Below, one piece after another: positions 454-2,075 of a stretch of 19,979 nucleotides of DNA. The stretch's first letter is position 1. Each line of letters opens with the position of its first letter. The DNA comes from Escherichia coli. GTDB lineage: Bacteria; Pseudomonadota; Gammaproteobacteria; Enterobacterales; Enterobacteriaceae. The notes beneath the pieces are model-generated. The model searched no databases, was not told the DNA's origin, and was given only the letters and a program-made list of their open reading frames with translations. The stretch lies in NCBI RefSeq assembly GCF_003334315.1, contig NZ_QOWR01000070.1; one strand, written 5' to 3'. Both the position numbers and the translations under genes were made by a program.

Positions 454-571
454 GAAACTTCAGTCCTCGAGAATTGCATTGTATTCAAATTAAAACTTCA
501 TAGCTGATTATTAATAATCAACATCGGGCGTCAATTTCAGTCTAACATTGGCGCCTGCCAGAGGTGATGCG

Positions 572-787
572 ATGGCACAAGTAATCTTTAATGAAGAGTG
601 GATGGTTGAATACGGCCTGATGCTTCGCACTGGTCTGGGGGCCAGACAAATTGAAGCATACCGCCAGAACTGTTGGGTGGAGGGCTTCCACTTCAAACGA
701 GTATCTCCTTTAGGTAAGCCAGACAGCAAACGAGGGATTATCTGGTACAACTATCCAAAGATAAATCAGTTTATCAAAGACTCATGA
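572..787 (+). CDS. xisR: Rac-prophage-type excisionase (71 aa), start taken at internal Met of the 548..787 ORF
   Basis: 71-aa product [35 protein letters not shown]... immediately upstream of the integrase, stop 1 nt before the int ATG; size and position typical of a lambdoid Xis. Identity to K-12 XisR/YdaQ is from memory. Confidence 0.7.
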
Positions 788-788
788 T

Positions 789-2024
789 ATGTCTAAATTA
801 CCAACAGGTGTCGAGATTAGAGGTAGATACATTCGCATCTGGTTCATGTTTCGAGGAAAACGATGTCGGGAAACATTAAAAGGCTGGGAGATTACAAACA
901 GTAATATTAAAAAGGCCGGAAATTTAAGAGCGCTGATAGTTCATGAAATAAACTCCGGTGAATTTGAGTATTTAAGACGTTTTCCCCAGTCCAGCACTGG
1001 GGCAAAAATGGTGACAACGAGAGTCATAAAAACGTTCGGGGAGCTTTGTGATATCTGGACAAAAATTAAAGAGACAGAGTTAACAACAAACACAATGAAG
1101 AAAACGAAATCACAATTAAAAACACTCAGAATAATAATTTGTGAAAGTACCCCGATATCACATATTCGTTATAGCGATATCTTAAACTACCGGAATGAAC
1201 TGCTGCATGGAGAAACGCTTTACCTGGATAATCCAAGATCCAACAAAAAAGGAAGAACCGTGCGCACAGTTGATAACTATATCGCCCTGCTCTGTTCGCT
1301 GTTGCGTTTTGCGTATCAGTCGGGATTTATATCAACCAAACCATTTGAAGGAGTAAAAAATTTACAGCGAAACAGAATAAAGCCTGATCCGTTATCTAAA
1401 ACAGAATTCAATGCATTAATGGAAAGTGAAAAAGGACAGAGCCAGAACTTGTGGAAATTTGCCGTTTACTCAGGACTTCGTCACGGGGAACTGGCAGCTC
1501 TGGCGTGGGAGGATGTGGATCTCGAAAAGGGAATAGTGAATGTCAGAAGAAACCTGACGATACTTGATATGTTCGGTCCCCCAAAAACAAATGCCGGGAT
1601 CCGAACAGTAACACTACTGCAGCCTGCTCTTGAAGCACTGAAGGAGCAATACAAACTGACCGGGCATCATCGCAAAAGCGAAATCACCTTTTATCATCGG
1701 GAGTACGGCAGAACCGAAAAGCAAAAACTGCATTTTGTTTTCATGCCCAGGGTGTGTAACGGAAAACAAAAACCTTATTACTCGGTAAGCAGTTTGGGGG
1801 CAAGGTGGAATGCAGCAGTAAAACGTGCTGGTATTCGCCGCCGTAATCCGTACCATACGCGGCATACTTTTGCCTGCTGGCTGTTGACGGCAGGAGCGAA
1901 CCCGGCATTTATAGCCAGCCAAATGGGGCATGAAACTGCGCAGATGGTGTATGAAATTTACGGTATGTGGATTGATGACATGAACGACGAACAGATAGCC
2001 ATGTTGAATGCGCGGTTATCGTAG
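789..2024 (+). CDS. intR: Rac prophage tyrosine integrase (411 aa)
   Basis: 411-aa ORF; C-terminal catalytic region with conserved R..HxxR..Y-type residues (..NPYHTRHTFACWLL.., ..MVYEIYGMW..); AT-rich codon usage unlike neighbouring core genes; directly adjacent to ttcA as in K-12. Confidence 0.9.
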   Translation: MSKLPTGVEIRGRYIRIWFMFRGKRCRETLKGWEITNSNIKKAGNLRALIVHEINSGEFEYLRRFPQSSTGAKMVTTRVIKTFGELCDIWTKIKETELTTNTMKKTKSQLKTLRIIICESTPISHIRYSDILNYRNELLHGETLYLDNPRSNKKGRTVRTVDNYIALLCSLLRFAYQSGFISTKPFEGVKNLQRNRIKPDPLSKTEFNALMESEKGQSQNLWKFAVYSGLRHGELAALAWEDVDLEKGIVNVRRNLTILDMFGPPKTNAGIRTVTLLQPALEALKEQYKLTGHHRKSEITFYHREYGRTEKQKLHFVFMPRVCNGKQKPYYSVSSLGARWNAAVKRAGIRRRNPYHTRHTFACWLLTAGANPAFIASQMGHETAQMVYEIYGMWIDDMNDEQIAMLNARLS

Positions 2025-2075
2025 TTGCAAAGTTTGCCCCCAATTTGCCCCATTTAGTACCAGAGAACTGAAATA

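What the first reader, a model, noticed from the sequence alone, without database searches (positions are those of the whole stretch)
454..2075. Rac-type prophage integration module (xisR-intR) with IS1 116 bp upstream of xisR: possible IS1-truncated prophage remnant
An intact excisionase and integrase pair sits next to ttcA, as in K-12 where the ~23 kb Rac prophage follows. Here an IS1 end lies only 116 bp upstream of xisR, where K-12 carries further Rac genes. Either the IS1 is a simple insertion into Rac, or IS1-mediated deletion has removed most of the prophage (recET, ralR, kilR, racR and others), leaving an orphan int-xis module. An intact integrase/excisionase without the rest of the phage can still act on att sites.
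Basis: partly seen in the sequence, partly recalled or inferred. Interest (0 to 1): 0.45.

Follow-up and report, generated by a model that had tools for sequence, protein, structure and literature searches.

The report
Rac int-xis end abutting IS1
This is the ordinary integrase-excisionase end of the well-known E. coli Rac prophage with a common IS1 insertion sequence cutting into the neighbouring phage gene. The window is a draft contig that stops inside IS1, so the sequence itself cannot show whether the rest of the prophage is still there.

Summary
IS1 ends at base 453. Next come the last 40 bp of rcbA (454-493), xisR (572-787, identical to K-12), intR (789-2024, one substitution, K191N) and ttcA with the Rac att core (2100-2125).

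The window is the whole 19,979-bp draft contig QOWR01000070.1. It stops inside IS1 at both ends, so the DNA to the left of the IS1 is simply not in it.

Indirect evidence favours an IS1-bounded deletion or rearrangement over a simple insertion.
- The rcbA'-IS1 fusion ORF that a simple insertion would create is on record in other strains. It is not on record for this assembly or for a Logan run (SRR3824135) that carries the identical junction.
- Among 5,426 complete E. coli genomes, eight have a same-orientation IS1 in this zone. One is a simple insertion, six are deletions and one is an inversion.
- Close relatives that share the right-hand IS1 have IS1 junctions at four different points from recT to intR.

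How much of Rac is lost is unknown. It could be about 0.6 kb or nearly all of it.

Everything here is known biology. Interest is low.

The parts
1..453 (+). 3' part of IS1 (nt 316-768): InsB C-terminal 145 codons (stop at 436-438) and the right inverted repeat ending at 453. The contig starts inside the element.
   Evidence: 99.6-99.8% identical to complete IS1 copies in TW01221 and Z503. Pfam PF03400 DDE_Tnp_IS1 on the 145-aa product. Terminal sequence read directly.
454..493 (+). Remnant of rcbA: its last 13 codons (KLQSSRIALYSN) plus the stop. The IS1 breakpoint lies inside rcbA.
   Evidence: Exact match to K-12 locus L001 6001-6040, where rcbA is annotated at 5831-6040.
490..518 (+). Promoter-like sigma-70 match (TTAAAA-17-AATAAT) between the IS1 end and xisR. 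It is retained on the xisR side of the IS1. This is a consensus match only.
572..787 (+). xisR (ydaQ), the Rac excisionase, 71 aa, intact.
   Evidence: No amino-acid difference from the XisR of TW01221, which carries the same protein accession (WP_000079604.1) as K-12. Pfam PF06806. Function shown in K-12 by PMC4632033.
789..2024 (+). intR, the Rac tyrosine integrase, 411 aa, full length, with one substitution (K191N).
   Evidence: Pfam PF12167 and PF00589. Position 191 is K in the eight other cluster members aligned; all other residues of the window protein match the consensus or invariant columns.
2083..2125 (+). Rac attachment site on the int side: a 43-bp imperfect repeat with a 26-bp identical core (2100-2125, AAGAAAGAACAATACAACCTGAACAA) inside the 5' end of ttcA.
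   Evidence: In K-12 this sequence repeats at the far (ttcC') end of Rac, about 23.06 kb away. Window position. The att-in-ttcA arrangement is described in PMC4632033.
2076..3011 (+). ttcA, the host gene that Rac integrates into. It carries the 'with-Rac' N-terminus [18 protein letters not shown].
19776..19979 (+). 5' part of a second IS1 (nt 1-204, left inverted repeat and the InsA N-terminus), in the same orientation, inserted between mppA and pgrR. The contig ends inside it.
   Evidence: The uninterrupted site is seen in TW01221.

Best explanation
Bases 454-2125 are the integrase end of a K-12-type Rac prophage: the rcbA tail, xisR, intR and the att site inside ttcA. The coding sequences are intact, so the module is probably functional.

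An IS1 sits with its right end against rcbA codon 57. The assembler could not cross this multicopy element, so the contig stops inside it.

The most likely history is not a clean insertion with Rac continuing on the far side. It is an IS1-bounded deletion or other IS1 rearrangement. That could arise from the IS1 transposing into this nearby target within the same DNA molecule, which deletes the DNA between the element and the target. It could also arise from recombination between two direct IS1 copies. Either route removes at least the 5' part of rcbA and joins the xis-int module to whatever lay on the far side of the IS1.

Shown: the junction, the intact xisR and intR, the att core and the contig break.
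Inferred: that the junction is non-simple.
Unknown: how much of Rac is missing, anywhere from 0.57 kb to about 21 kb, and whether the second att site survives.
For: 1. The junction is real and lineage-specific. The identical sequence occurs in Logan SRR3824135, and TPA contig DABAWT010000075.1 matches the window exactly from base 458, 4 bp short of the junction. No complete RefSeq E. coli genome has it.

2. A simple insertion needs a reciprocal junction, rcbA 5' joined to the IS1 left end.
- For an 8-bp duplication that junction gives a 60-aa ORF, P0002. It is in the collection, but only in NRWW01000193.1, SRR22543863, DRR784709, DRR784602 and ERR1622653. Every Logan run is named, and neither QOWR01 nor SRR3824135 is among the records.
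- The versions for 6, 9, 10, 11, 12 and 13 bp are absent from the collection.
- The 7-bp version belongs to a neighbouring insertion shifted by 1 bp.

3. Base rate. Eight of 5,426 complete genomes have a same-orientation IS1 whose right end lies between the recT 3' end and the intR 5' end.
- One is a simple insertion: 2018-05-2CC, with 9-bp duplication GACAATGTT.
- Six are deletions: ES6 5.7 kb, Z503 20.9 kb, LR-17-1 about 11 kb, GPEC1446 7.3 kb, FORC_082 and B-JRPT-4119.
- One is an inversion: MB51, with an inverted 8-bp CAGAAACA.

4. Near-identical relatives (3-6 mismatches in 12-14 kb) share DbpA Q442R, and their contig lengths are consistent with sharing the right-hand IS1. They carry IS1 right-end junctions at four points in the same orientation: recT (the most common form), rcbA (this window), the xisR start and intR.

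5. The reciprocal junction ORF for the intR type is also absent from the collection.
Against: - The left flank was never seen. Everything about it rests on absence from an index, and the index documentation itself says 'not on record' does not prove absence.
- An amino-acid variant in the source strain's rcbA would escape the exact-match look-ups. So would an IS1 left-end variant such as GGTGATGATGCC, seen in LCP22S3_I2.
- The junction lies exactly on a recurrent IS1 target, GAAACTTC. Other strains carry the matching left junction there, giving an 8-bp duplication. A 1-bp-shifted insertion, fully assembled in BFTY01000024.1, is a clean simple insertion with an 8-bp duplication. A simple insertion is therefore mechanistically quite plausible.
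- One of the five contigs carrying IntR K191N comes from an unnamed Logan run.
Confidence: 0.62

Rival explanations
1. Simple IS1 insertion into the 3' end of rcbA with an 8-bp target duplication (GAAACTTC). The rest of Rac (ralR, recT, recE and so on) continues immediately beyond the IS1, and only rcbA is disrupted.
For: - The matching left junction...GAGAAACTTC|GGTGATGC, exists in four other datasets in the compatible orientation.
- The same 8-bp site is hit in the opposite orientation in ERR1622653.
- An insertion shifted by 1 bp is fully assembled with an 8-bp duplication and intact flanks in BFTY01000024.1.
- The closest complete genomes (TW01221, LCP22S3_I2, H7) all keep recET-ralR-rcbA.
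Against: - The reciprocal ORF P0002 is not on record for QOWR01 or for SRR3824135, although NCBI's annotation pipeline and Logan's gene calls recorded it elsewhere.
- Only one of eight comparable IS1 copies in complete genomes is a simple insertion.
Confidence: 0.2
2. A small nested deletion; this is a specific version of the best explanation. The clone's ancestor carried an IS1 in recT, with its right end at K-12 Rac position 25459 of locus L026. That IS1 then deleted 571 bp rightwards (the recT 3' end, ralR and the rcbA 5' part) to the GAAACTTC target. recE and everything further left remain beyond the IS1.
For: - The recT junction is the most common form among the near-identical relatives (SAHT01000062.1: 4 samples plus 13 similar places). 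The other junctions (rcbA, xisR, intR) lie progressively to the right in the same orientation.
- The left partner of the recT insertion, a RecT'-IS1 fusion (P0031) implying a 10-bp duplication, exists in five contigs. Two of their samples are unnamed.
Against: - None of the named P0031 samples is SRR3824135, QOWR01 or DABAWT01.
- The one long P0031 contig (PFZJ01000089.1) is not known to belong to this clone.
- The same recT right junction in GPEC1446 has a 7.3-kb deletion on its left. The recT type itself may therefore not be a simple insertion.
Confidence: 0.25
3. IS1-mediated inversion or translocation. The 19.3-kb xisR-mppA segment, flanked by two direct IS1 copies, is joined beyond the left IS1 to unrelated chromosomal or plasmid DNA. 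Rac genes may survive elsewhere in the genome.
For: - MB51 shows exactly this kind of event at the same locus. The ralR-to-dgcM segment lies between inverted IS1 copies, with an inverted 8-bp target duplication.
- The window is bounded by IS1 on both sides.
Against: - Here the two IS1 ends are in direct orientation. That is not the product of a single inversion event.
- There is no positive evidence for this reading.
Confidence: 0.1

Closest known systems
Rac cryptic prophage integration module of E. coli K-12 (xisR/ydaQ-intR next to ttcA; Liu et al. 2015, PMC4632033)
   Same: - The gene order is the same: rcbA-xisR-intR-att-ttcA.
- XisR is identical and IntR is 410/411 identical.
- The att core sits in the ttcA 5' end, and the 'with-Rac' TtcA N-terminus is present.
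- The DNA is 99.9% identical over 454-2100.
   Different: - rcbA is cut by IS1, leaving 40 bp.
- IntR carries K191N.
- The rest of the 23-kb prophage and the second att site (ttcC') cannot be seen.
IS1 simple insertions and IS1-promoted adjacent deletions or inversions (classical IS1 biology, cited from general knowledge)
   Same: - The IS1 terminal inverted repeats abut target DNA precisely.
- Relatives show 8-, 9- and 10-bp target duplications, deletions that start exactly at an IS1 end, and one inversion with an inverted target duplication.
   Different: For this copy only one of the two junctions is available. The defining test, whether a target duplication is present, cannot be made.
IS1-truncated Rac remnants in complete genomes: Z503, ES6, LR-17-1, FORC_082, B-JRPT-4119, GPEC1446
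   Same: IS1 lies in the same orientation, with its right end 37-358 bp nearer to or inside xis-int, or 571 bp further away (GPEC1446). The flanking host genes ttcA-dbpA-zntB are the same.
   Different: - The breakpoints differ; none shares this junction.
- In those genomes the deleted interval is visible: 5.7-20.9 kb in the four where it could be mapped (ES6, GPEC1446, LR-17-1, Z503). Here it is not.

Membership tests
Rac prophage int-xis module at ttcA | IntR orthologue: a 411-aa tyrosine recombinase with an Arm-binding domain and a Phage_integrase domain | tested here: met
   410/411 identical to K-12 IntR. Pfam PF12167 and PF00589.
Rac prophage int-xis module at ttcA | XisR (YdaQ) excisionase immediately upstream of intR, with overlapping stop and start codons | tested here: met
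   71 aa, identical to K-12 (WP_000079604.1). PF06806. The xisR stop (785-787) is followed directly by the intR start at 789.
Rac prophage int-xis module at ttcA | Location at the ttcA 5' end, with the Rac att core and the phage-derived TtcA N-terminus | tested here: met
   The 26-bp core at 2100-2125 is identical to both K-12 att copies. The TtcA N-terminus is [10 protein letters not shown]... as in K-12 with Rac.
Rac prophage int-xis module at ttcA | A second att site (ttcC' side) and prophage body present, so that int-xis has a substrate | not testable with these tools
   The contig ends in IS1 at base 1. Other contigs of GCA_003334315.1 cannot be listed with these tools.
IS1 | Terminal inverted repeats, and the InsA and InsB reading frames of the 768-bp element | tested here: met
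   The right repeat and 145 codons of InsB are at 1-453. The left repeat and 49 codons of InsA are at 19776-19979. Both are 99-100% identical to complete IS1 copies.
IS1 simple insertion | An 8-10 bp direct target duplication flanking the element, with uninterrupted target DNA on both sides | tested here: inconclusive
   The left junction is outside the window. The expected reciprocal ORF (P0002) is not on record for this assembly or for SRR3824135, although it is for others. Absence from an index is not proof.
IS1-promoted adjacent deletion | An IS1 end joined to DNA that is non-adjacent in the ancestor, with no target duplication | not testable with these tools
   Needs the left flank. Support is indirect only: the base rate in complete genomes and the series of different junctions in the clone.

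The most novel reading that the evidence does not exclude
The 8-bp sequence GAAACTTC at the 3' end of rcbA may be a recurrent IS1 target. It has been hit independently in both orientations and with a 1-bp shift, in several backgrounds.

Separately, within one near-clonal E. coli lineage a single anchored IS1 may be deleting stepwise through recT, rcbA, xisR and intR. That would be a natural nested-deletion series showing how an insertion sequence erodes a cryptic prophage from its integrase end. This window would be one intermediate in which int-xis is still intact.
Probability: 0.35. Interest if true: 0.3.

Novelty: already known. Interest (0 to 1): 0.12.

Why it matters
It matters little beyond annotation. 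Rac, XisR/IntR and IS1-mediated insertion, deletion and inversion are all well described. Several complete genomes already show IS1-truncated Rac remnants.

If the truncation is real, this strain would lack some or all of recET, ralR, kilR and related genes while keeping a potentially active recombinase pair. That bears on strain-level predictions of Rac excision and recET-dependent recombination.

The practical lesson for the scan is that an IS fragment at base 1 of a window can be a contig end. It should not be read as evidence about what lies beyond.

Tried and rejected
1. Exact junction in complete genomes. I searched 5,426 complete E. coli genomes for the junction and found none. The same was true of the right-hand junction.

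2. Papers. A search for the assembly accessions returned nothing.

3. Other samples with IntR K191N. I repeated the look-up with a small flank to expose them, but the tool's merging of similar places still showed only one.

4. Other IS1-ended contigs of the same assembly. I looked up the cut 49-aa InsA product. It is listed in 832 blocks, and only unrelated long scaffolds came back.

5. Nested deletion from the IS1 in TW01221. IS1 left junctions in LR-17-1, FORC_082, B-JRPT-4119 and TW01221 all differ, so that specific anchor is rejected.

6. Rare Rac protein variants. I tried RecE and RecT variants to trace Rac genes in the source assembly. The variants seen are either common or belong to other lineages.

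7. An episomal or tandem unit. A circle of the 19.3-kb segment plus one IS1 has no replication origin. A tandem duplication would have broken the contig exactly at 454 and 19775 rather than inside IS1. This rejection is by inference.

8. The rcbA'-IS1 fusion expected for a 14-bp duplication. It matched a 62-aa protein (P0046) in contigs up to 5.4 Mb. That protein differs by one residue from a widespread natural 62-aa allele, so I did not treat it as an IS1 junction. I did not follow it further.

Full report
WHAT IS IN THE WINDOW

Bases 1-453 are the 3' part of IS1 (nt 316-768) in + orientation. They match complete IS1 copies at 99.6-99.8% identity. They encode the last 145 codons of InsB (Pfam PF03400) and end with the right inverted repeat ...AAGTTGGAGTCATTACC at base 453.

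From base 454 the sequence is colinear with the K-12 MG1655 Rac prophage and its host flank, with 9 mismatches in 7,647 bp.
- The IS1 breakpoint lies inside rcbA. Bases 454-493 are its last 13 codons plus the stop.
- xisR is at 572-787. Its product has no amino-acid difference from the XisR of TW01221, which carries the K-12 protein accession.
- intR is at 789-2024. It is full length, with one synonymous and one non-synonymous change (K191N) relative to K-12. Position 191 is K in the eight other cluster members aligned.
- ttcA is at 2076-3011 and carries the 'with-Rac' N-terminus.
- The Rac att repeat is at 2083-2125, with a 26-bp identical core at 2100-2125. In K-12 the same repeat recurs 23.06 kb away at the ttcC' end.

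The roles of XisR, IntR and the att site in ttcA are established for K-12 in PMC4632033. Two details change: the IS1-to-xisR distance is 118 bp, not 116, and the IS1 interrupts a gene rather than spacer DNA.

An exact-protein look-up with the K191N integrase returned the window itself. It is the complete 19,979-bp contig QOWR01000070.1 of draft assembly GCA_003334315.1.

Its other end is also IS1. Bases 19776-19979 are IS1 nt 1-204 in the same orientation, inserted between mppA and pgrR. The contig is thus a 19.3-kb unique segment that the assembler could not extend through a multicopy element on either side. What lies to the left of the IS1 sits on some other contig.

The junction is nevertheless genuine. 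A Logan assembly of SRR3824135 is 100% identical over 13.3 kb including the junction. The TPA contig DABAWT010000075.1 is 100% identical from base 458. No complete RefSeq E. coli genome carries this junction.

INDIRECT TEST 1: THE RECIPROCAL JUNCTION

A simple insertion would leave the 5' part of rcbA joined to the IS1 left end after a short target duplication. That creates a predictable fusion ORF. I computed the fusion for duplications of 6-14 bp and looked each one up by exact sequence.

- 8 bp (P0002...CEKLR, 60 aa): it exists. It is recorded only in NRWW01000193.1 (a divergent Rac-like prophage), in Logan runs SRR22543863, DRR784709 and DRR784602 in the compatible orientation, and in ERR1622653 in the opposite orientation. 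Every Logan run is named; the one unnamed second sample is for NRWW01000193.1, probably its GCA/GCF pair. Neither QOWR01 nor SRR3824135 is among them.
- 6, 9, 10, 11, 12 and 13 bp: absent from the collection.
- 7 bp (P0001): this belongs to a different insertion shifted by 1 bp. It is fully assembled in BFTY01000024.1 as a clean simple insertion with the 8-bp duplication AGAAACTT.
- 14 bp: the product matched a 62-aa protein that differs by one residue from a widespread natural allele. I did not count it as an IS1 junction.

NCBI's annotation and Logan's gene calls did record P0002 elsewhere. Its absence from the two informative datasets of this lineage therefore counts against a simple insertion. 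It is an absence from an index, though, and a variant in rcbA or in the IS1 end would defeat the exact match.

INDIRECT TEST 2: BASE RATE IN COMPLETE GENOMES

Eight of 5,426 complete genomes have a same-orientation IS1 whose right end lies between the recT 3' end and the intR 5' end. I examined all eight.

| Genome | Event | Detail |
|---|---|---|
| 2018-05-2CC | simple insertion | 9-bp duplication GACAATGTT |
| ES6 | deletion | 5.7 kb, ydaF' to rcbA |
| Z503 | deletion | 20.9 kb, almost all of Rac |
| LR-17-1 | deletion | about 11 kb, ending in xisR |
| FORC_082 | deletion | shares an intR 5' junction with B-JRPT-4119; different left flank |
| B-JRPT-4119 | deletion | shares an intR 5' junction with FORC_082; different left flank |
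| GPEC1446 | deletion | 7.3 kb, ydaU' to recT |
| MB51 | inversion | ralR-to-dgcM segment between inverted IS1 copies, inverted 8-bp target copy |

One of eight is simple.

INDIRECT TEST 3: THE CLONE

The window's DbpA carries Q442R. Looking that protein up found a set of contigs within 3-6 mismatches per 12-14 kb of the window, and their lengths are consistent with ending in the same right-hand IS1. They stop at different IS1 right-end junctions on the left, all in the same orientation:
- in recT, 571 bp left of this window's junction. This is the most common form (SAHT01000062.1, 4 samples plus 13 similar places);
- in rcbA (this window's lineage, five contigs);
- at the xisR start codon (SRR21743707);
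- in intR at window base 1086 (DRR634199).

The reciprocal IntR'-IS1 ORFs for the intR type (duplications of 6-12 bp) are absent from the collection. Several right junctions in one orientation without reciprocal left junctions is what IS1-promoted adjacent deletion from one anchored element would give. It also fits recombination between a distant IS1 and fresh insertions.

I could not identify the anchor. The RecT'-IS1 fusion that would partner the recT junction (P0031, implying a 10-bp duplication) exists in five contigs, two from unnamed samples. Whether it occurs in this lineage stays open.

WHAT SPEAKS FOR A SIMPLE INSERTION

The breakpoint falls on a site that IS1 clearly favours. The same 8 bp have been hit in two different Rac backgrounds in this orientation and once in the opposite orientation. 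A site 1 bp away has been hit as well. The closest complete genomes (TW01221, LCP22S3_I2, H7; 7-9 mismatches in 19.3 kb) all retain recET-ralR-rcbA.

A hot-spot endpoint is equally expected for a deletion made by the IS1 transposing into a nearby target in the same molecule. This observation therefore does not discriminate between the two histories.

CONCLUSION AND WEIGHTS

I put about 0.6 on an IS1-bounded deletion of unknown extent. Within that, about 0.25 goes to the minimal 571-bp version that leaves recE and everything beyond it in place. I put about 0.2 on a simple insertion and about 0.1 on an inversion or translocation. These readings are not fully exclusive.

In every scenario the xis-int-att module in the window is intact at the sequence level. 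A promoter-like match at 490-518 remains between the IS1 and xisR. That is a consensus match only.

Whether the pair can still excise anything depends on the ttcC'-side att copy, which cannot be seen. Z503 shows that a roughly 2.9-kb mini-Rac retaining both att sites can exist.

One constraint follows from the literature and is my inference, not something tested here. racR is essential in K-12 because it represses the ydaS toxin (PMC5700373, abstract). A leftward deletion that removes racR should therefore also remove ydaS. Where the intervals could be mapped they fit this: ES6 stops before the repressor gene, GPEC1446 removes the whole block, and Z503 removes almost all of Rac.

COMPARISON WITH WHAT IS KNOWN, AND VERDICT

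Every component is a member of a well-known family: Rac XisR/IntR/att at ttcA, and IS1. The event class is textbook, and clearer examples exist in complete genomes. Novelty is 'already known' and interest is low.

The only mildly interesting by-products are the recurrent IS1 target in the rcbA tail and the possible nested-deletion series in one clone. Neither is established here.

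Noticed in passing
window 19776-19979: A second IS1 (nt 1-204, same orientation) is inserted between mppA and pgrR. The 19.3-kb xisR-mppA segment is therefore bracketed by direct IS1 copies. Forty-six complete genomes have an IS1 within a few hundred bp of this site, but none has this exact junction.
   Followed up: partly
window 454-461 (GAAACTTC); loci L006-L014: The 3' end of rcbA looks like a recurrent IS1 target. The same 8-bp site carries IS1 in the + orientation in two different Rac backgrounds and in the - orientation in ERR1622653. 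An insertion shifted by 1 bp, with 8-bp duplication AGAAACTT, occurs in at least two further backgrounds.
   Followed up: partly
L035, L037, L038 (relatives sharing DbpA Q442R and near-identical flanking sequence): Near-identical strains stop at IS1 right-end junctions in recT, at the xisR start codon and in intR, all in the same orientation. This may be a nested-deletion series from one anchored IS1. The common left flank was not found.
   Followed up: partly
L040 (Logan SRR29490226), equivalent to window 2100: This relative's contig begins exactly at the first base of the 26-bp Rac att core, with no IS1 bases. That is the pattern expected if reads from excised (attB) and integrated (attR) forms merge in the assembly graph. 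It hints at ongoing excision or a mixed population in that sample.
   Followed up: no
L003 (E. coli Z503, NZ_CP090305.1): An IS1-mediated 20.9-kb deletion has left a mini-Rac of about 2.9 kb. It consists of the ttcC'-side att, 567 bp of Rac, IS1, xisR, intR and the ttcA-side att. It is a potentially excisable int-xis element with almost no cargo.
   Followed up: partly
L047 (E. coli MB51, NZ_CP073946.1): The ralR-to-dgcM 5' segment lies between inverted IS1 copies, with an inverted 8-bp copy of the target (CAGAAACA). This is the signature of an inversion made by IS1 transposing within the same molecule. It splits dgcM.
   Followed up: yes
L028 and L030 (FORC_082, B-JRPT-4119): Both genomes share the same IS1 right junction in intR (window base 812) and an N-terminally shortened 392-aa IntR annotation. 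Their left flanks differ, which suggests later leftward deletions or different prophage contexts.
   Followed up: no
L031 (LCP22S3_I2) 4714-6266: This IS1 has a partial sieB copy on its left and a complete sieB on its right, a 285-bp partial duplication rather than a target duplication. Its left end has the variant GGTGATGATGCC.
   Followed up: no
window 3189 (dbpA codon 442); L034: The DbpA Q442R substitution that marks this clone also occurs on a Logan contig (SRR8901689) that is otherwise 99.99% identical to K-12 over 10.3 kb. The same change therefore appears in two backgrounds.
   Followed up: no
L005 (TW01221) 10001-10768: The closest complete relative has an IS1 at the DUF977 boundary of its Rac-like prophage with no target duplication (...ATCTGTTT | CTCTTCCGG). 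That IS1 also marks a rearrangement.
   Followed up: partly
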